A DNA stretch of 64,000 bases, taken from Escherichia coli. GTDB lineage: Bacteria > Pseudomonadota > Gammaproteobacteria > Enterobacterales > Enterobacteriaceae. Where the stretch lies: the NCBI RefSeq assembly GCF_030013595.1, contig NZ_CP122768.1. One strand, written 5' to 3'. Below, piece after piece: positions 5,584 through 13,778 of this stretch. The notes beneath the pieces were generated by a model. The model saw only the letters and a program-made list of their open reading frames with translations. It was not told the origin of the DNA and did not search any database. The translations under genes and the position numbers were made by a program. Position 1 is the first letter of the stretch, and every line of letters begins with the position of its first letter.

Positions 5584-8406
5584 ATGACGGCAAAGTACAT
5601 CAGGGACTGGCAACAACCGCGCCACGCAGTGGGGCGTGAAGGAACGGGGATCCCCGCTCCTGAATCCGCGCTTTCCTCCTGGCTGGATGCCTACCGGGCA
5701 GAGAACGAGCGCCGCCAGGAAATGGCTGATGCGGCGTTCTCCGCCACGCCGCTGGGCAACCTGATTAATAAAAGCCTGGACGCACAGGAAAAACAGGACA
5801 AAACCATCACACTGGCAGGAGACGCCAGAAAACAGGCACGCGGCGCGGTGGATGAAGCCATGGCCTCGCTGCGCCTGCTGCCGTCCTATCTGCGCGATCC
5901 GCTTATTCGCCACCTCTCCTTCCTGCGCAAAAAACAGGAAGCCGATCGTCAGAAAGGAAAAAACGCCAGGCAGGCAGAACGCTATGCGCGTGGGACCCTG
6001 CGCAAAATATTCGAACGTCTGGAGCGCACCGATCACCGCTGGCTGACACCGGGTTATCGCTCCCTTGCCGGACGCGAACGCCTGGACGATTTGCTTTACC
6101 TGCCGCAGCTCAACAAACACCAGATACAGACGCTGGCCACCATGACGGCGGCGATGTTCAGCAGCACCTTCGAAAAACTCTGCGATGGCTTTGGCGCGAC
6201 CGATGGCGAACTGACCATGGATGTAACGCTGAAGGCGTATCAGATGCTGGCCCGCATGGCGTTACACCTGCACATCATGCCTCCACATTATGACGCACTG
6301 ACAACAGACAAAGACCGGAGGAACGAACCGGACACGGAGCTGCTGCCGGGCGCAATCCTTCGCCTGACCTGTGCGGAATGGTGGAAACGCAAACTGTGGC
6401 TGTTACGTTGCGAGTGGCGGGAAGAACAACTCCGCGCCGCCTGTCTGGTTTCCAGAAAAACATCACCCTATCTGAGCCAGGACGCGTTAAGCGAGTTTCG
6501 CGCACACCGCGAGAAAACACGCGATTTCCTGAAAAGTTTCATGCTGGAAAATGAAGACGGGTTCACGATTGATCTCGAGACGGTGTATTACGCGGGAGTA
6601 AGTAACCCGGTTCACCGTAAGGCAGAAATGATGGCCACCATGAAGGGGCTGGAACTTCTGGCCGAAGCCCGTGGCGACAGAGCGGTGTTTCTGACTGTCA
6701 CCTGCCCGTCAAAATACCACGCAACAACGGAGAACGGTCATCCGAATCCCAAATGGAACGGGGCCACCATGCGCGACTCCAGCGATTACCTGGTTAACAC
6801 GTTTTTTGCGACGGTCCGCAAAAAACTGAACCGCGACGGTCTTCGCTGGTATGGCATCCGCACGGTGGAGCCTCACCATGACGGCACTGTGCACTGGCAT
6901 ATGATGGTCTTTGCACATCCGGACGAGATTGAAACCATCGTGTCCCACGTCTGCGATATTGCCATTCAGGAAGACCGCCACGAGCTGGGCGATGATATTA
7001 CTCCGCGTTTTAAAGCGGAGTACGTCGACGGCTCAAAAGGCACGCCAACCAGCTACATCGCCACCTACATCGGAAAGAACCTGGACAGCCGCGCCGTGGA
7101 TGGCATCGCCCCGAAAACGGGCAAGCCACGCGTTGACCACGAAACCGGAAAATCAATGGCCGAGAGCGTGGAGCGCGCCATCGGCTGGGCGCGCCTTCAC
7201 CGGGTCCGCCAGTTCCAGTTCTTTGGCATCCCCTCCCGTCAGGTGTGGCGTGAACTGCGCCGCCTTGCCAGCCAGATGGCACGCAACCCGGAAGGCCCGC
7301 AACGGCTGAAGGATGACGCAATGGATGCAGTGCTCGCTGCCGCTGATGCCGGGTGTTTTGCCTCCTACATTGAAAAACAGGGCGGCGTACTTGTTCCACG
7401 CCAGGACTACCTGATTCGCACCGCCTACGACCTCGCAGATGAGCTGAACGATTACGGCGAACAGAGCGTACAGATTTACGGGATCTGGTCACCACTCATC
7501 GGGGAGTCTTCCCGTGTGTGCACACATCCGGATAACTGGAAGCTGGTAAGACGTAAACCGGAAGCGGAAGACAGCGCCCGCGAAAATGGTTTTGACCTTC
7601 AGGGCGGCCCTGCCGCCCCTTGGACTCGTGGCAATAACTGTCCCCGTGTACAGGAAACGGACAACAACGGGACAGAACAGCCGGAAGAACGGCCAGCACC
7701 GTGGCCGCAGCTCCCTGACGGCGTTGAAGTGAACGAATGGATGCGCTCACTGAAACGGCACGAACGCCGGGCGCTGATGCGTTCGCTTCGTGACAAACAG
7801 GCAAAAAACAGCAGTGATGAAATGCAGAGCTGGACACAGAGCCGCAAACAGCAGCGGCCTTTGCCTGATAACCACGAATTACTCGCTAAAGAATGGCGGG
7901 AGTCTGCTGAATCTCTCGGCCTGCATATCGGTGAACAACAGATGCAGCACCTGTTACGGGGCGGCAGTCTGTACGTTGACGGCAGCATCATTGCACCGCA
8001 GGGATTTGAAATTGTACGCAAACCGGATACCCGCCCGGACAGCCGAATCACGCAGCTCTGGCAGCGCCTGAGCCGTAATCATGGCGTAAGCAGCACGGAG
8101 ATCCGCCATAACCCGGTCGCCAGCTATCTGGCACAGCTGGGGGCATCAGACCCTGAAGCCGCCGCACGCCTGGCATCCACACTTCAGCAGGACCAGAACA
8201 CCATGAAAACACCCGTTACCGTGCTTTCTGACATGCTGCGCGCCATCCGCGACGCAGAGCACGCACAGAGAATCAGTGAAACCACTGAACGCGCCAGCCG
8301 CAAAGCAGACCTGCTGCGGGGTGGCCTGACCAGTGGAAACAAAAAACAGACAGAAACGGGACTCACGAATCCCGCAAATGAGCAAAAAACGCGCAGCGAT
8401 ATATGA
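5584..8406 (+). CDS. A: Replication initiation endonuclease (P2 gpA family, rolling-circle)
   Basis: 940-aa ORF with the HUH-type region (GTVHWHMMVFAHPDE) and conserved P2 position between early genes and the Q/P packaging genes. Confidence 0.85.
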   Translation: MTAKYIRDWQQPRHAVGREGTGIPAPESALSSWLDAYRAENERRQEMADAAFSATPLGNLINKSLDAQEKQDKTITLAGDARKQARGAVDEAMASLRLLPSYLRDPLIRHLSFLRKKQEADRQKGKNARQAERYARGTLRKIFERLERTDHRWLTPGYRSLAGRERLDDLLYLPQLNKHQIQTLATMTAAMFSSTFEKLCDGFGATDGELTMDVTLKAYQMLARMALHLHIMPPHYDALTTDKDRRNEPDTELLPGAILRLTCAEWWKRKLWLLRCEWREEQLRAACLVSRKTSPYLSQDALSEFRAHREKTRDFLKSFMLENEDGFTIDLETVYYAGVSNPVHRKAEMMATMKGLELLAEARGDRAVFLTVTCPSKYHATTENGHPNPKWNGATMRDSSDYLVNTFFATVRKKLNRDGLRWYGIRTVEPHHDGTVHWHMMVFAHPDEIETIVSHVCDIAIQEDRHELGDDITPRFKAEYVDGSKGTPTSYIATYIGKNLDSRAVDGIAPKTGKPRVDHETGKSMAESVERAIGWARLHRVRQFQFFGIPSRQVWRELRRLASQMARNPEGPQRLKDDAMDAVLAAADAGCFASYIEKQGGVLVPRQDYLIRTAYDLADELNDYGEQSVQIYGIWSPLIGESSRVCTHPDNWKLVRRKPEAEDSARENGFDLQGGPAAPWTRGNNCPRVQETDNNGTEQPEERPAPWPQLPDGVEVNEWMRSLKRHERRALMRSLRDKQAKNSSDEMQSWTQSRKQQRPLPDNHELLAKEWRESAESLGLHIGEQQMQHLLRGGSLYVDGSIIAPQGFEIVRKPDTRPDSRITQLWQRLSRNHGVSSTEIRHNPVASYLAQLGASDPEAAARLASTLQQDQNTMKTPVTVLSDMLRAIRDAEHAQRISETTERASRKADLLRGGLTSGNKKQTETGLTNPANEQKTRSDI

Positions 8407-8482: not shown

Positions 8483-9442
8483 ATGAAAATTTGTATCGAC
8501 GACGGCTCCACCAACATCAAGCTGGCATGGACTGAGAACGGCGAACGCCGCAACGCCATCAGCCCGAACAGCTTCAAGTCGGAATGGTCTGCGCCGTTCG
8601 GCGGCACGCAGCCCGCGAACTACATGCTTGATGGCGTGCGCTATGGTTTTGATCCGGTCAGCGATCGCTTTGTCCAGACGACCGACACGCAATACCAGTA
8701 CAGCGATGTAAATGTCATTGCCATTCATCACGCGCTGGTCAAATCAGGCATCACGCCACAGGAGGTGGATGTGGTTGTCACCCTGCCACTGAGCGAGTAT
8801 TTCGACACAAACGCACAGCCGGACATGGCCAACATCAACCGCAAAAAAGCGAACGTTATGCGCCCGGTGGAGTACCAGAACGGCGAAGCATTCACTATCC
8901 GTAACGTGCGGGTTATGCCTGAATCCATTCCGGCTGGCTTTAAAGCACTGGCTGACATGAGTCCGTTTGAATCCCTGCTGATTGTGGATTTAGGTGGAAC
9001 CACGCTGGATGTGGCAAAGGTTCAGGGACAACTGGCAGGTATCAGCCAGGTGTTTTGCGATCCACACGTAGGCGTTTCCCTGATGGCCGATGCAGTACTG
9101 TCGGTGATGGCCACTAACGGTATGCGTACCAGTCACCACATCGCCAATACCATTATCGAACATCGCCATGATGAAGCCTGGCTGCGCCAGCACATCCACA
9201 ATGACGCGCATTACGCCAGCCTGATGGCGGTTATTCGTGAAAAGGAAGAAACACTGAAACAACGCGTGATCCGCGCGCTGGCGGGTTTTTCGGGTTACGG
9301 GCGGGTGATGGTTGTCGGTGGCGGGGCGGAGATTGTGGCACCCGCTATCCGCGAAGCCTGCGGAGTTAATGCGACTTTCATCGCGGACGGGGTGCCACAG
9401 TTTGCTCTGGTTAATGGGCTGTACGCAATGGACAAGGAGTAA
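8483..9442 (+). CDS. parM: ParM/StbA-like actin-family partition ATPase
   Basis: Residue-level similarity along the whole length to plasmid R1 ParM as I remember it (IDDGSTNIKL, YSDVNV...HHAL, VMPESIPAG, LI.DLGGTTLD, GGGAE, LVNG). Confidence 0.85.
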   Translation: MKICIDDGSTNIKLAWTENGERRNAISPNSFKSEWSAPFGGTQPANYMLDGVRYGFDPVSDRFVQTTDTQYQYSDVNVIAIHHALVKSGITPQEVDVVVTLPLSEYFDTNAQPDMANINRKKANVMRPVEYQNGEAFTIRNVRVMPESIPAGFKALADMSPFESLLIVDLGGTTLDVAKVQGQLAGISQVFCDPHVGVSLMADAVLSVMATNGMRTSHHIANTIIEHRHDEAWLRQHIHNDAHYASLMAVIREKEETLKQRVIRALAGFSGYGRVMVVGGGAEIVAPAIREACGVNATFIADGVPQFALVNGLYAMDKE

Positions 9443-9446
9443 ACCA

Positions 9447-9758
9447 ATGACGACACCAACCAGACGGATAAGTTTCTATCTGAAGCCCGCCGCCGTCAAG
9501 AACGAAGGCGAAGCATGCGCCTGGCTGGACAGCCTTACACCAGAAGCCCGCAAAAGCGGCCAACGTGTGGCTTTTCTGGCCGGGCTGGCACTTCTGAAAA
9601 TGAATCCGGCAGAGGCTTACCGACTGGCTGCATGGGCTGACGATGAGGCGTTATCAGTGACACAAACCAGGACAGAACGCCCCGCGTCACAGCCAGTACC
9701 AACCACACAGATAACCAGTCGGATGGCCGGAAATATCAGGGCGTTATTTCCCGAATAA
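9447..9758 (+). CDS. parR: ParR/StbB-like centromere-binding protein
   Basis: Starts 4 bp after parM; resembles R1 ParR from memory (FYLKP, AALTAGLAL-type helix, RALFPE C-terminus). Confidence 0.6.
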   Translation: MTTPTRRISFYLKPAAVKNEGEACAWLDSLTPEARKSGQRVAFLAGLALLKMNPAEAYRLAAWADDEALSVTQTRTERPASQPVPTTQITSRMAGNIRALFPE

Positions 9759-9821
9759 CACAACATCAGGGCGCATCCGCCCTGATGACTTTAATCCGGG
9801 AACATAAACAAGGGGGACACA

Positions 9822-10154
9822 ATGCAACACATTGACAGAGAAAAAGCGCAGCGACTGATTGAGCGGATGGAAGCGCTGGCGAAAGAAGAAAATGTCAACA
9901 TCCAAAAAATAGCTGAATGTGGCCAGATAGTTCTTCGTCGTGAAAAAGACCTCAAACAACTGATGTCTGGCGAAACCAGCAAAACATGGACTTCAGGCGA
10001 GGAGACGATTTATTGCAGCTTCTGCAATAAATCTCAGTACGAAGTCACAAAGGTGATTGCCGGACCGTCTGTTTACATCTGCAATGAGTGCGTGGATTTG
10101 TGCAATGAAATTATCAGGAGAGAAGTGACAGACAAAAAGGGAAAAAACGCATGA
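9822..10154 (+). CDS. Small protein with a C-terminal ClpX-type C4 zinc-binding domain
   Basis: [39 protein letters not shown] closely parallels the ClpX N-terminal zinc-binding domain ([40 protein letters not shown]); no AAA+ module follows. Confidence 0.7.
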
Positions 10155-10489
10155 ACAGAAAACAAAAACAAGAGTTGAAATACTTTTTACGTAAAGAAAT
10201 TGCCAGGCTTGAAGATGCAGAATCACAATCATCAGAAATTCCGTTCGGAATGGATATCAACGACGCCCGTATGCTCCAGGCATACCGCATAGCTCAGGCT
10301 GCACTACAGGCAAAACCGTCAGATGGACTGGTTAGAGCAGTACGATTCTATGAACTGGTAAAGCGTGAGAATCCGCCAGCCGAAACCGGAGCATGGAAAG
10401 ACGCTGTTGACTGGGTACTCAAAGAGGCTTGTCAGGTTGTAAACACTGGCATCAAAGGAGACCTAGCCCAGCCTGCATCAAAGCTATAG
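10151..10489 (+). CDS. Hypothetical protein translationally coupled to the ClpX-ZBD gene
   Basis: ATGA overlap with upstream stop; 112 aa, no recognised domain. Confidence 0.5.
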
Positions 10490-10498
10490 AAATGAGCC

Positions 10499-10527
10499 AA
10501 AACGCCCTCTTCCAGGGCGTTTATTTC
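10499..10527 (+). terminator. Rho-independent terminator after the accessory genes
   Basis: GC stem AACGCCCT/AGGGCGTT followed by a T-rich tract. Confidence 0.55.
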
Positions 10528-10980: not shown

Positions 10981-12027
10981 TCAGGATGTGGGCTGGGTAT
11001 CTAACAGTGCGTAAGGGTTAAAGCGGATCACCTCTTCGCCAAGCCAGTCATTGATGTGCTTCATGGCCTCCATGACGGGCATCAGCTCGTTAATTGCGTA
11101 AACCCGCGCGGCCTTCTCCACATCACCAAACGCACTTTTTTCACCCGGCATCGCTCCCATCAGTTGCGGCGGAACGCGGTGCGCAGCCAGCACATCATCA
11201 CGGGATGCCGCCTTAACATTCATGAACTCATCCTTTGCGGTGATCTGCTGGAACGGCAAAATTTGCACACCTTCTTTGCCCCCGTTGGGCGCATGAATGA
11301 GCACGTTTTTAAATGCACCACCACCACGCGCACCCTGTAACGTTTCTTTCAGGGAGTCCATGCTTTCGCGGTTTACCTGCGCTGCACCGATGTAGATGAT
11401 GCACCCGGCGTGGGATCCGTTGTCGTAATACAGTTTTCTGAACATGTCCGCCGAATGAGACAGGCTGGCCGAGAGTAATGCGCCAAGATATTCCGGCATG
11501 CCGTAAATTTCCTGGTTAATGTCAGGATTCATCAGGTGACACACTTTGCCTGGGCGAAACTGAAACGCATCCTTGCCATCCTGCACATACCACCATGATT
11601 CAAGATCGCTTCCGCGTCGCATGTATTTCGCCAGGGCGTGCCGTAATTTAAGCGGTTCGCCGAGCATATTGCTTCGAAGCTCAAGGAATGCGTTACCGAA
11701 CACAAACCAGTCCAGCGCCAGCGCCGAGAAATCCTGCCGGGAAAGCAGCGGGTGCGGAATATAGCAGCCGAGCAATACATTGCGCTTAAAGTAAAGCGCA
11801 GACTGATGCCAGGACGTTTGCCGGGCAGCTCTTGCCAGACCGTACCAGTCTACCGGGGTTTCATACCACCGCCCGTTATCAGCACAGTACATATTGTCCA
11901 GCAGGTCATGCCCGGTCAGGCGATAAGGACCATCAAATGTGAATGCACTGAGCGATGATTCTTTCCTGAGCGCATCAGCGAGATCAATGCGTGAACTCAT
12001 GCGCACTTTTTTATTTTTTCTGCTCAT
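10981..12027 (-). CDS. Q: Portal protein (P2 gpQ)
   Basis: 348-aa ORF matching P2 Q in size and position, divergent from O. Confidence 0.85.
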   Translation of the reverse strand: MSRKNKKVRMSSRIDLADALRKESSLSAFTFDGPYRLTGHDLLDNMYCADNGRWYETPVDWYGLARAARQTSWHQSALYFKRNVLLGCYIPHPLLSRQDFSALALDWFVFGNAFLELRSNMLGEPLKLRHALAKYMRRGSDLESWWYVQDGKDAFQFRPGKVCHLMNPDINQEIYGMPEYLGALLSASLSHSADMFRKLYYDNGSHAGCIIYIGAAQVNRESMDSLKETLQGARGGGAFKNVLIHAPNGGKEGVQILPFQQITAKDEFMNVKAASRDDVLAAHRVPPQLMGAMPGEKSAFGDVEKAARVYAINELMPVMEAMKHINDWLGEEVIRFNPYALLDTQPTS

Positions 12028-13778
12028 CAGAACTCCATAACCGTGAAACGCTCGTTTTCTCCTTCGCCGCCAATTGGTTCGTTAATGACAGCAAGCATGG
12101 TTGCCCACGCAAGGTCGCCGTGGCTGATCCCCCTCGCGCGGTCCGTTTCGTAAGTGATAAAGCCGCCCGGTGTTTTCACCTTACGCACGGCGTTAAAGGC
12201 CGCGACCAGCTCGCGTTCGGCGCGATCGTATTCCCACCGTCCGGCACGCATTATTTGCAGCATTTTCAGTACCAGCGACCGTTTGGATGACAGCGTGAAG
12301 GTGTACGGAATAGCAGCAGGGAAAAACCGCTTCACTATCTGATAAACAGCCTCCCCGTTCCCGCCCGTCACATCAATGCCGATGTGTTCCACGTTGTAGC
12401 GACACGTGAACTCTTCAATGACTCTGGCCTGTTCTTCAAACTCCAGCCCCTGAACGCGTCGCGTCTCCACCGTTCGAAAACGGCCACCAGGAACAGCCGG
12501 AGGAACCACCACGGACACAGCGCCGCTGTCGCCGTTGCCACTGCTGCCGTTTGCGTCATACCCAATCCATACCGGACGATTCCCCATCGGGCGGGGAGCA
12601 AAAGGTTTCCAGTCTTTCCAGTCGTCGTATCCGTCAACACCGCAGCCAATCAGGATATTCAGGTTAAATGCCGATTCCCCTTCGCGAACAAACTCACACA
12701 TATAGAGATTGAGGAACTCGTCTTCGGTGTTTTCATCACGGATTTCGTCAATATCGGTGTGTTTCCAGCCGTGATTAACCACATCTTCCAGCGTGACAAT
12801 TTGCCGCCACGTCCGGTCAGGGCAGATAAGCCCGTTATGCAGCGTTTTCCAGTCCACAGAAAAACGCTGGCGTTTATGCGCGGCCTTTTTCTCGTTCCAG
12901 CGGTCGCCGTTCCAGTAGACGTATGCCTCGTGCGTTTCGGTTGATGGCGTGGAGAAGTAGGTGCGCCGCAGTCCGCTGAGGGTTGCCATAGCGCCAGCCA
13001 CCTTGCGCAGTTCAGCAAAGCGACTGACCCAGAAAAATTCATCAAAATAAAAATTGCCTGTGTAGGACTGTGCCGTCGCAGCAGAAGTACCGAGAAAATG
13101 CAGTTCTGCGCCGTTGGAGAGGATGATTTTATCGCCCCCTTTCAGCTCCACATCAACTTCAGCCGCGGCCTTCTGAATAATGCTTTTAAACTGGAACGCC
13201 TGACGACGCGACGCAGACAAAAAAATCTGGTTACGCTGGTAAGGTTGTGCCACATCGTCACGCAGCGCCATCAGCAGTGCTTCCTGTGCAAAATACCAGG
13301 TCGCCCCAATCTGTCGGGATTTCAGGATCATCCTGTTACGTATCCCGGCTTCACTGCAAAGGGTCAGGGAGTCAAACCAGCCCCGCTGATGCCACTCCAG
13401 CCTGCTGATGATTTTTTCCCGCAGTGCGGCAATCTGCTCCGGCGTGAAATGATTTTTAAGTTTTTTCGCCCGGCCTTTCTTTCCTGTGGCCGTCGCATCC
13501 GGCTGGCCATCATGCAGTTTTTTAAGCTGCCGGGTCAGCAGGTCTATTTCCTTAAAGTCACCACCTGTTTTATTCTGTTTTTCAGTAAGCTGGATGAGGC
13601 GCGCATCGATGGACTGCGTGACACGCTGCACGGGTGGCGTTTCATCCCACTGGTCGCGTTTTTTCCACGCATAAATCGTGTTCGGGTTTATTCCCATCAG
13701 ACGTGATATTTCTGCGGGCGGATAACCCTGCCAGTAAAGTTGCCGCGCACGCTGGCGCACAAAAGCGTCCTGAATCAT
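12027..13778 (-). CDS. P: Terminase large (ATPase) subunit (P2 gpP)
   Basis: 583-aa ORF directly upstream of Q on the same strand; P2 P family. Confidence 0.85.
   Translation of the reverse strand: MIQDAFVRQRARQLYWQGYPPAEISRLMGINPNTIYAWKKRDQWDETPPVQRVTQSIDARLIQLTEKQNKTGGDFKEIDLLTRQLKKLHDGQPDATATGKKGRAKKLKNHFTPEQIAALREKIISRLEWHQRGWFDSLTLCSEAGIRNRMILKSRQIGATWYFAQEALLMALRDDVAQPYQRNQIFLSASRRQAFQFKSIIQKAAAEVDVELKGGDKIILSNGAELHFLGTSAATAQSYTGNFYFDEFFWVSRFAELRKVAGAMATLSGLRRTYFSTPSTETHEAYVYWNGDRWNEKKAAHKRQRFSVDWKTLHNGLICPDRTWRQIVTLEDVVNHGWKHTDIDEIRDENTEDEFLNLYMCEFVREGESAFNLNILIGCGVDGYDDWKDWKPFAPRPMGNRPVWIGYDANGSSGNGDSGAVSVVVPPAVPGGRFRTVETRRVQGLEFEEQARVIEEFTCRYNVEHIGIDVTGGNGEAVYQIVKRFFPAAIPYTFTLSSKRSLVLKMLQIMRAGRWEYDRAERELVAAFNAVRKVKTPGGFITYETDRARGISHGDLAWATMLAVINEPIGGEGENERFTVMEF

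What the first reader, a model, noticed from the sequence alone, without database searches (positions are those of the whole stretch)
9822..10489. Standalone ClpX zinc-binding-domain protein translationally coupled to an unknown partner
Seen in sequence: the C-terminal 40 residues ([39 protein letters not shown]) are nearly superimposable on the N-terminal C4 zinc-binding domain of ClpX, but no AAA+ module follows; the stop overlaps the start of the next gene (ATGA). Established knowledge: the ClpX zinc-binding domain dimerises and docks adaptors and substrates such as SspB, lambda O and MuA. Inference: a phage-encoded decoy or adaptor that could redirect or block ClpXP proteolysis, or the sensor half of a two-gene module.
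Basis: partly seen in the sequence, partly recalled or inferred. Interest (0 to 1): 0.68.

Follow-up and report, generated by a model that had tools for sequence, protein, structure and literature searches.

The report
Prophage protein carrying a ClpX zinc-binding domain
A P2-like prophage of E. coli encodes a small, conserved, uncharacterised protein that is a two-helix N-terminal domain tethered to a near-perfect copy of the docking domain of the host ClpX unfoldase; it probably works alone as a competitor for ClpX adaptors and substrates, and the overlapping downstream gene is only one of many interchangeable neighbours.

Summary
ORF1 (9822-10154, 110 aa) ends in a ClpX-type C4 zinc-binding domain (ZBD): Pfam E 9e-18, 76% identical to E. 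coli ClpX, model within 0.6-0.7 Å of solved ZBD structures, no AAA+ module. Its stop overlaps the ATG of ORF2 (10151-10489).

The window is a P88-like (P2-family) prophage. The pair sits in the gpA-to-portal cargo hotspot.

ORF1 belongs to a small family (phrog_6797). Every full-length relative has the same N-terminal helical hairpin, flexible linker and ZBD, with four invariant Cys, under purifying selection. It is not a recent copy of host clpX.

The two-gene-module idea fails. At least eight different genes follow ORF1 homologues, and in three divergent P2-like prophage lineages it has no co-directional downstream gene. ORF2 is a mosaic all-alpha prophage protein whose C-terminal 50 residues recur in about 750 E. 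coli genomes, some copies named ead/Ea22-like.

Best guess, untested: ORF1 is a free-ZBD decoy that titrates ZBD-docking adaptors and substrates away from ClpXP. Isolated ClpX ZBD does this in vitro. No functional study was found. Interest is moderate.

The parts
9822..10154 (+). ORF1: 110-aa 'ClpX C4-type zinc finger protein' (phrog_6797), preceded by the Shine-Dalgarno-like AAGGGGGA at 9810-9817
   Evidence: ORF list and sequence. phrog_6797 matches full length at E 1.5e-58. The protein is 100% identical in phage P88. Purifying selection in deep comparisons, dN/dS about 0.1-0.5.
9822..9971 (+). ORF1 N-terminal domain (residues 1-50): predicted two-helix hairpin (helices 6-22 and 27-49) with the conserved motifs ERxEALAxEE and LRR
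   Evidence: AlphaFold pLDDT is 87-95 over residues 1-40. A profile search of 1.84 billion representative proteins found only 19 hits, and every full-length hit whose sequence was fetched or already known also carries the ZBD. No Pfam match.
9972..10001 (+). Flexible Ser/Thr/Gly-rich linker (residues 51-60), variable in length between homologues
   Evidence: pLDDT is below 50 for residues 54-59. Length variation is visible in alignment A3.
10002..10127 (+). ClpX-type zinc-binding domain (residues 61-102) with ligands C65, C68, C87 and C90
   Evidence: The four Cys are invariant in 18 diverse homologues.
10007..10033 (+). Perfect 12-nt inverted repeat with a 3-nt loop, inside the codons for I-Y-C-S-F-C-N-K-S
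   Evidence: The RNA fold z-score is -3.0. It is only partly conserved across the family, with one compensatory pair. Significance unknown.
10151..10154 (+). ATGA stop/start overlap between ORF1 and ORF2; AAGGGA lies 7-12 nt upstream of the ORF2 ATG
   Evidence: Sequence. The same -4 overlap is seen in about 20 related loci.
10151..10489 (+). ORF2: 112-aa all-alpha accessory protein (phrog_26213/phrog_660)
   Evidence: No Pfam, PDB or significant PADLOC match.
10319..10462 (+). ORF2 C-terminal module (residues 57-104, [24 protein letters not shown]), shared with many mosaic prophage proteins
   Evidence: The DNA matches genes in 753 of 5,426 complete E. coli genomes, some annotated ead/Ea22-like. 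The residues are invariant in A4. Three relatives pair the ORF2 N-terminus with a different C-terminal domain.
9764..9787 (.). 10-bp GC-rich hairpin between parR and ORF1
   Evidence: The scan called it a terminator only for the minus strand.
10500..10526 (+). Hairpin AAACGCCCT-cttcc-AGGGCGTTT followed by ATTT, directly after ORF2: a likely terminator of the cassette
   Evidence: Read directly from the sequence. The consensus scan did not call it.
8483..9758 (+). parM (8483-9442) and parR (about 9447-9758): partition cassette immediately upstream
   Evidence: phrog_691 and phrog_2515. P88 annotation. StbA and Plasmid_stab_B Pfam domains in related loci.

Best explanation
ORF1 is a stand-alone accessory protein of temperate enterobacterial phages (P2-like prophages and D6/P1-like phage-plasmids). 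It consists of a small helical N-terminal domain, a flexible linker and an authentic ClpX-type zinc-binding domain. Shown here: the domain identity, the fixed three-part architecture, purifying selection, phage residence at the gpA-to-portal hotspot, and independence from any fixed neighbour. Inferred: the protein acts as a free ZBD. The ClpX ZBD is the platform on which adaptors (SspB tail, RssB) and some substrates (lambda O, MuA) dock. Extra untethered copies should titrate these ligands and selectively block ZBD-dependent ClpXP proteolysis, leaving direct ssrA-type degradation intact. The N-terminal hairpin would then add oligomerisation (avidity) or a second specificity. Likely pay-offs, none tested: stabilising a labile phage or host protein such as a replication initiator or sigma-S, or hindering ClpX-dependent competitors such as Mu. 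ORF2 is a separate, mosaic, all-alpha 'ea-region' type gene of unknown function that is translationally coupled here but is not a required partner.
For: ZBD identity. Clade A ZBDs, including this one, match true ClpX ZBDs of other proteobacteria at the invariant positions, for example [22 protein letters not shown]. Architecture: the N-domain is found only with the ZBD, in 65 viral loci and in the full-length hits inspected from a search of 1.84 billion representatives. Selection: the ZBD is 76% identical to host ClpX in protein but only 64% in DNA, only 12 of 31 identical residues use the same codon, and blastn does not find clpX. So conservation is maintained rather than recent. dN/dS is 0.1-0.5 in deep comparisons. 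Works alone: no co-directional downstream gene in three divergent P2-like lineages and at least eight alternative downstream genes. Precedent: isolated ClpX ZBD at 5-20 uM inhibits RssB-dependent sigma-S degradation by 0.6 uM ClpXP, and deleting the ZBD abolishes it while ssrA substrates are unaffected (PMC7226468). From my own recollection of Wojtyra et al. 2003 (not re-read), free ZBD also blocks lambda O degradation.
Against: There is no experimental datum for this protein. Expression timing is unknown, and no sigma-70-like promoter was found upstream. In-vitro inhibition needed a roughly 10- to 30-fold excess of ZBD. Clade B homologues change positions that are constant in the true ClpX sequences sampled: P82 to D, S83 to A/N/D, L93 to A/V/D. 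That could mean the ClpX-related surface is not what is conserved. Some shallow ZBD comparisons give dN/dS of 1 or more, on very few sites. The conserved N-domain is not explained by a pure decoy model. The ZBD fold is intrinsically constrained, so sequence identity alone does not prove shared ligands.
Confidence: 0.4

Rival explanations
1. Adaptor or redirector. The N-terminal hairpin binds a specific phage or host protein. The ZBD attaches to ClpX, by mixed ZBD dimers or by docking on the ring, so that the bound protein is delivered to, or remodelled by, ClpXP.
For: The layout (binding domain, flexible linker, docking domain) mirrors adaptor logic. The ClpX ZBD is a dimerisation domain (PMC5890618; PMC7226468). 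The N-domain is conserved and always present. The conserved I/V-x-L-R-R motif loosely recalls the LRVVK ClpX-binding tail of SspB; this is my recollection and a weak lead only.
Against: ClpX ZBD dimers form within one hexamer, and nothing here shows exchange with a free ZBD. The LRR motif lies in a predicted helix, whereas, as I recall the 2DS8 structure, the SspB tail binds as a strand. No candidate cargo co-varies or co-occurs with the gene.
Confidence: 0.15
2. A regulator unrelated to ClpXP. The ZBD serves only as a compact dimeric zinc module, as in the Bacillus anti-sigma factor CsfB, and the protein binds some other target such as a sigma factor, a repressor or nucleic acid.
For: CsfB shows that a ClpX-ZBD-like treble-clef dimer can act in a different pathway (PMC5890618). 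Clade B ZBDs diverge at positions constant in ClpX. A separate 136-aa family joins a ZBD to a helix-turn-helix-like tail.
Against: CsfB shares only about 20% identity with the ClpX ZBD, whereas ORF1 shares 76% and the Salmonella homologue about 88% by my hand count of the sequences. All surface positions that are constant in ClpX are retained in clade A.
Confidence: 0.2
3. ORF1 and ORF2 form a two-gene anti-phage defence or toxin-antitoxin module, as the hotspot position and the ATGA overlap suggest.
For: The locus is the gpA-gpQ cargo hotspot of P2-like phages, which holds old, tin and other defence systems (PMC9122126). The arrangement 'StbA + Plasmid_stab_B + zf-C4_ClpX + hypothetical' is listed in that paper's hotspot table. 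The region has low GC, like acquired cargo. The genes overlap and sit between hairpins.
Against: ORF1 has no PADLOC hit and ORF2 only a non-significant one at E 0.013. The partner is not fixed, and the ORF2 C-terminal domain is itself swapped. ORF1 has no co-directional downstream gene in three lineages. ORF1 also lies outside this hotspot, in D6-like phage-plasmids among ea-type genes. The ORF2 C-terminal module occurs in about 750 genomes, against 220 with the ZBD gene. A deletion variant lacking ORF1 is widespread, so ORF2 is not a toxin that needs ORF1.
Confidence: 0.1
4. ORF1 alone excludes competing phages, for example by starving Mu-like phages of ClpX-dependent transpososome remodelling.
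For: Hotspot position. ClpX is needed for Mu growth and its N-domain helps recognise MuA; this is established knowledge recalled from memory, not checked here.
Against: Entirely inferential. The gene's long residence next to gpA across diverged P2-like phages fits a role in the phage's own cycle at least as well.
Confidence: 0.1

Closest known systems
N-terminal zinc-binding domain of ClpX (PDB 1OVX, 2DS5-2DS8; Pfam PF06689)
   Same: C-x2-C-x18-C-x2-C ligands, 76% sequence identity and a predicted fold within 0.6-0.7 Å. All positions constant in the sampled true ClpX sequences are kept.
   Different: It sits at the C-terminus of a 110-aa protein behind an unrelated helical hairpin. No AAA+ ring follows. 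It is phage-encoded.
Isolated ClpX ZBD used in trans in vitro (Micevski et al. 2020, PMC7226468)
   Same: A ZBD without the ATPase. In the test tube it competitively inhibits adaptor-dependent ClpXP degradation.
   Different: That is a laboratory fragment. ORF1 is a natural gene with an extra conserved domain, and its activity is untested.
Phage- and prophage-encoded modulators of host proteolysis: T4 PinA and T7 Gp4.5 (Lon), lambda CIII (FtsH) and lambda RexB (Clp) recalled from memory; T5 Gp00X (ClpXP/RpoS, PMC11806420); prophage AppY acting through IraM (PMC10057817)
   Same: Small phage accessory proteins that retune a host AAA+ protease or sigma-S stability.
   Different: None is a copy of the protease's own docking domain. 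ORF1's effect on proteolysis is only inferred.
CsfB (Gin) anti-sigma factor of Bacillus subtilis
   Same: A small protein built on a dimeric treble-clef zinc domain resembling the ClpX ZBD.
   Different: CsfB shares only about 20% identity with the ClpX ZBD and its relatedness is doubted. ORF1 is unmistakably ClpX-derived.
ead/Ea22-like prophage proteins, the lambda exo-xis 'ea' region (comparison for ORF2)
   Same: ORF2 shares its C-terminal 50 residues with proteins RefSeq names ead/Ea22-like. It has the same modular build: a short helical N-terminus plus a swappable C-terminal domain. Lambda Ea22 favours lysogeny (PMC10834534).
   Different: ORF2 has no Pfam Ead_Ea22 match. It is predicted all-alpha, whereas the lambda Ea22 C-terminal domain is mixed alpha/beta. 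It has no sequence match in the PDB.

Membership tests
ClpX zinc-binding domain (Pfam PF06689, zf-C4_ClpX) | Four Cys ligands in the pattern C-x2-C-x18-C-x2-C | tested here: met
   C65, C68, C87 and C90. They are invariant in 18 homologues.
ClpX zinc-binding domain (Pfam PF06689, zf-C4_ClpX) | Significant match to the family profile and to solved ZBD sequences | tested here: met
   Pfam E 8.9e-18. 1ovx E 2.2e-19.
ClpX zinc-binding domain (Pfam PF06689, zf-C4_ClpX) | Treble-clef fold superposable on 2DS5/1OVX | tested here: met
   The AlphaFold model (ZBD pLDDT about 90) superposes at rmsd 0.6-0.7 Å, TM 0.88-0.93 normalised to the target. This is a prediction, not a structure.
ClpX zinc-binding domain (Pfam PF06689, zf-C4_ClpX) | Zinc binding, dimerisation, and docking of the SspB tail, RssB or lambda O | not testable with these tools
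   Needs biochemistry. Only sequence conservation of the surface can be shown here.
ClpX AAA+ unfoldase (TIGR00382 / NF003745) | AAA+ ATPase module after the ZBD, and a score above the curated cut-off | tested here: not met
   The protein ends 9 residues after the ZBD helix. It scores 50 bits against a cut-off of 371.
ead/Ea22-like family (for ORF2) | Match to Pfam PF13935 Ead_Ea22 | tested here: not met
   No Pfam match even at E 10.
ead/Ea22-like family (for ORF2) | Shares a domain with proteins annotated as ead/Ea22-like | tested here: met
   The C-terminal 50 residues are 82-83% identical to PF13935-containing proteins P0230, P0234 and P0253.
ead/Ea22-like family (for ORF2) | Lambda Ea22 C-terminal domain fold (beta-beta-alpha-beta-beta-alpha dimer) | tested here: not met
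   The model is four helices, mean pLDDT 70. There is no PDB sequence or fold match.
Known anti-phage defence systems (PADLOC-DB v2) | Match to a defence-protein profile | tested here: not met
   ORF1 has none. ORF2 has only PDC-M28C at E 0.013, 12 bits.
Known anti-phage defence systems (P2 hotspot cargo) | Location in the gpA-gpQ hotspot of P2-like phages | tested here: met
   gpA 5584-8406 and portal 10981-12027 flank the pair. The arrangement is listed in the hotspot table of PMC9122126.
Two-gene module (toxin-antitoxin or sensor-effector) | Conserved partnership of the two genes across relatives | tested here: not met
   At least eight different downstream genes. No co-directional downstream gene in three lineages. 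The same neighbour follows diverged ORF1 alleles.
Two-gene module (toxin-antitoxin or sensor-effector) | Phage protection or toxicity phenotype | not testable with these tools
   Needs cloning and phage or toxicity assays.

The most novel reading that the evidence does not exclude
Temperate phages keep a free-standing, selection-maintained copy of the host ClpX docking domain as a natural domain-mimic inhibitor. By soaking up the adaptors and degrons that must dock on the ClpX N-domain, it would selectively switch off one branch of ClpXP proteolysis. Possible consequences are stabilising sigma-S, stabilising lambda-O-type or gpA-type replication initiators, or blocking Mu-type ClpX-dependent competitors. 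This would be a new way for a virus to reprogram a host AAA+ protease.
Probability: 0.3. Interest if true: 0.7.

Novelty: new variant of a known kind. Interest (0 to 1): 0.5.

Why it matters
ClpXP controls sigma-S, SOS and stress regulators, antitoxins and several phage proteins, and its N-domain is the hub where adaptors dock. A natural, phage-borne, free copy of that hub would be a simple, genetically encoded, branch-specific ClpXP inhibitor. It would help dissect adaptor-dependent proteolysis. It would also be relevant to how about 4% of complete E. coli genomes (220 of 5,426) carrying these prophages or phage-plasmids might alter stress responses or phage competition. The hypothesis is directly testable with existing ClpXP assays. 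If instead the ZBD is only a structural module, the family is an ordinary uncharacterised phage accessory gene.

Tried and rejected
1. Recent capture from host clpX: rejected. DNA identity is 64%, only 12 of 31 identical residues use the same codon, and blastn of the ZBD-coding DNA finds 220 genomes, in which every row shown is the prophage gene and never clpX.

2. ORF1 as an Ea22-type scaffold with a swapped C-terminal domain: rejected. hhalign of the N-domain against the Ea22-like neighbours gives 0.3% probability, and against the ORF2 family 4.5%.

3. Known defence system: PADLOC gives nothing significant.

4. Fold of ORF2: the model has moderate confidence and Foldseek against the PDB gives no hit below E 0.9.

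5. Fold of the ORF1 N-domain: a two-helix hairpin with no specific PDB match beyond the ZBD.

6. Own promoter for the cassette: no sigma-70-like site upstream of ORF1, so expression timing is unresolved.

7. P2 cos sequence, to delimit the hotspot: not found within 3 mismatches.

8. Literature: five full-text searches found no functional study of a stand-alone phage ClpX-ZBD protein. The papers that define the ZBD ligand-binding residues (Thibault 2006, Park 2007) were not available, so I could not map binding-site residues.

9. A complex prediction (ORF1 with ClpX ZBD, the SspB tail or ORF2) was not possible.

Full report
**Observation**

The window around the finding is 99.2% identical to Escherichia phage P88, a P2-like member of Peduoviridae (genus Xuanwuvirus). 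The gene order on the plus strand is:
- replication endonuclease gpA (5584-8406)
- parM (8483-9442)
- parR (about 9447-9758)
- ORF1 (9822-10154)
- ORF2 (10151-10489)

The portal gene (10981-12027) and the large terminase gene (12027-13778) follow on the minus strand.

The C-terminal part of ORF1 is a ClpX-type zinc-binding domain (ZBD) by every test available:
- Pfam zf-C4_ClpX matches at E 8.9e-18.
- The solved E. coli ClpX ZBD matches at E 2e-19.
- 31 of 41 residues are identical to MG1655 ClpX.
- The AlphaFold model superposes on 2DS5/2DS6/2DS8 at 0.6-0.7 Å.

No AAA+ module is present. RefSeq already names the protein 'ClpX C4-type zinc finger protein'. Older records call it 'carboxylate--amine ligase', which no domain match found here supports.

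**Anatomy of ORF1**

The model has three parts:
- two confident helices (residues 6-22 and 27-49)
- a disordered Ser/Thr-rich linker (residues 51-60)
- the ZBD (residues 61-109)

A profile of the N-terminal 58 residues was searched against 1.84 billion representative proteins. It found only 19 hits. Every full-length hit whose sequence was fetched or already known has the same N-domain, linker and ZBD layout. All 65 viral loci recovered with the N-domain carry a ZBD with both CxxC pairs wherever the gene could be read. In 18 diverse members the four Cys are invariant. The family is phrog_6797, function unknown.

**Evolution**

There are two clades.

Clade A (P88-like, including the window) lives in P2-like prophages, directly after parMR or after gpA. 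Its ZBD is 76% identical to enterobacterial ClpX; for the Salmonella homologue I count about 88% by hand from the sequences. It matches true ClpX proteins of other proteobacteria at the positions that are constant there.

Clade B lives mostly in D6/P1-like phage-plasmids and other large elements, among ead/Ea22-like genes. Its ZBD departs from ClpX at a few positions, for example IAGDAVFICDECVDVCN.

The similarity to host ClpX is not a recent capture. DNA identity is 64%. Only 12 of the 31 identical residues use the same codon. blastn with the ZBD-coding DNA finds 220 of 5,426 complete E. coli genomes (127 chromosomal and 105 plasmid places), and every row shown is the phage gene, never clpX. 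Deep pairwise comparisons give dN/dS of about 0.1-0.5 for both domains. A few shallow ZBD comparisons are near or above 1, but on about 25 synonymous sites. The gene is therefore real and under selection.

**Is it a two-gene module?**

No. Across the loci collected, ORF1 homologues are followed by at least eight different genes:
- an ORF2-type gene with the same -4 overlap (about 21 loci)
- a 174-aa protein after a 60-nt gap (about 17 loci, some truncated)
- a 118-aa protein
- Ea22-like proteins
- several others

The 174-aa neighbour is 94% identical behind two ORF1 alleles that are themselves only about 50% identical. This shows recombination between ORF1 and whatever follows it.

In three divergent P2-like lineages (P0019 in Salmonella, plus P0123 and P0134) the homologue has no co-directional downstream gene. 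It follows gpA and one or two small ORFs, and is followed by a convergent gene (ogr-type in several loci) and the portal gene.

ORF2 is itself mosaic. Its first 50-60 residues always accompany the P88-type ORF1 3' end, but three relatives carry a different C-terminal domain. Its C-terminal 50 residues are almost invariant in hundreds of otherwise unrelated E. coli prophage proteins, some containing Pfam Ead_Ea22. A widespread deletion variant fuses ParM residues 1-124 to the ORF2 C-terminus and lacks ORF1 altogether.

ORF2 has no Pfam, PDB or significant PADLOC match. It is predicted to be four helices (mean pLDDT 70), unlike the alpha/beta C-terminal domain of lambda Ea22.

**Genomic setting**

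The gpA-to-gpQ interval is the cos-proximal cargo hotspot of P2-like phages. P2 itself carries old and tin there, and several defence systems were found there (PMC9122126). That paper's hotspot table lists 'StbA + Plasmid_stab_B + zf-C4_ClpX + hypothetical...' among the arrangements, but its main text never mentions ClpX.

GC falls to 0.42-0.44 over ORF1 and ORF2, against 0.52-0.60 in the flanks. Hairpins bracket the pair at 9764-9787 and 10500-10522. No sigma-70-like promoter was found upstream, so the timing of expression is unknown.

**Mechanism**

This part is inferred. The ClpX ZBD is the docking platform for RssB and SspB. Deleting it abolishes RssB-dependent sigma-S degradation while ssrA-tagged substrates are unaffected. 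Isolated ZBD added in trans inhibits the reaction (PMC7226468).

A selection-maintained, untethered ZBD that matches a true ClpX ZBD at the constant positions is therefore most simply a competitor for these ligands. The conserved N-terminal hairpin may provide oligomerisation or a second binding specificity. The decoy model does not explain it, and it is the main reason to keep an adaptor-type rival.

The gene sits next to the replication initiator gene in diverged P2-like phages. A different 73-aa ZBD-only ORF lies just upstream of the replication gene in a Klebsiella phage (L012, between cII and the next gene). Both hint that the protected target might be a replication protein, by analogy with lambda O. 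That is speculation.

I put the decoy mechanism at about 0.4. The rivals are:
- an adaptor or redirector, 0.15
- a ClpXP-unrelated use of the zinc module, as in CsfB, 0.2
- a two-gene defence or toxin-antitoxin module, 0.1
- single-gene exclusion of ClpX-dependent phages, 0.1 (this is a biological pay-off of the decoy mechanism, so it overlaps with it)

**Comparison and novelty**

Phage proteins that retune host proteases are known. Examples are inhibitors of Lon and FtsH, lambda RexB (all recalled from memory), T5 Gp00X, which drives RpoS proteolysis, and prophage AppY, which stabilises RpoS through IraM. None is a copy of the protease's own docking domain.

Five full-text searches found no functional work on this family. 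It is a known domain in an uncharacterised, already catalogued architecture. If the decoy idea holds, it is a new variant of a known kind of host-takeover function.

**Verdict**

The phage and ZBD parts of the interpretation are supported, and the decoy reading is plausible and directly testable. The two-gene-module idea is not supported. Interest is 0.5.

Noticed in passing
window 10007-10033: A perfect 12-nt inverted repeat with a 3-nt loop lies inside ORF1, over the codons for I-Y-C-S-F-C-N-K-S. The RNA fold z-score is -3.0. A stem of 10 bp or more is kept in most clade A genes and many clade B genes. One lineage pairs TAT>TGT (Tyr>Cys) with AAT>AAC, which preserves the stem. The repeat is broken in several other lineages and absent from host clpX.
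   Followed up: partly
window 8483-9758: A ParM/ParR plasmid-type partition cassette sits between gpA and the cargo genes of this P2-like prophage. This suggests a plasmid-like maintenance stage or a borrowed stability module.
   Followed up: no
protein P0148 (related E. coli prophages; corresponds to window about 8483-8854 joined to about 10262-10489): A 191-aa fusion of ParM residues 1-124 to the C-terminal part of ORF2. It is a deletion that removes the parM 3' end, parR, ORF1 and the ORF2 5' end. It was seen on 143 contigs, so ORF1 is dispensable for prophage persistence.
   Followed up: partly
L012 3001-3222 (+), Klebsiella phage ST846-OXA48phi9.2: An unannotated 73-aa ORF with a ClpX-type ZBD (HKCSFCG...ICQKCV) lies between cII and the next gene, just upstream of the replication genes. 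It is an independent stand-alone ZBD next to a replication module.
   Followed up: no
proteins P0031, P0061, P0067, P0096 (metagenomic and genomic hits): A separate 136-aa family has an N-terminal ClpX-type ZBD and a C-terminal helix-turn-helix-like segment (GVSWARIGEALGMTRQSAWERFSGEE). It is another stand-alone use of the domain. I did not establish its taxonomic source.
   Followed up: no
window 10319-10462: About 145 nt encoding the ORF2 C-terminal module recur at 86-94% DNA identity in 753 of 5,426 complete E. coli genomes, and in unrelated phages of about 39-134 kb (for example vB_EcoP_PAS61, mEp460 and vB_EcoM_TH18). It behaves like a shared recombination module.
   Followed up: partly
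window 9800-10400: GC content drops to 0.42-0.44 over ORF1 and ORF2, against 0.52-0.60 in the flanking phage genes. This is typical of acquired accessory cargo.
   Followed up: yes
L014-L019, about 7697-8077 in L014: In sister prophages the same hotspot carries, after the ORF1 homologue, a 174-aa gene, a 197-aa gene and a YafO-toxin-domain gene. This shows how interchangeable the cargo behind ORF1 is.
   Followed up: no
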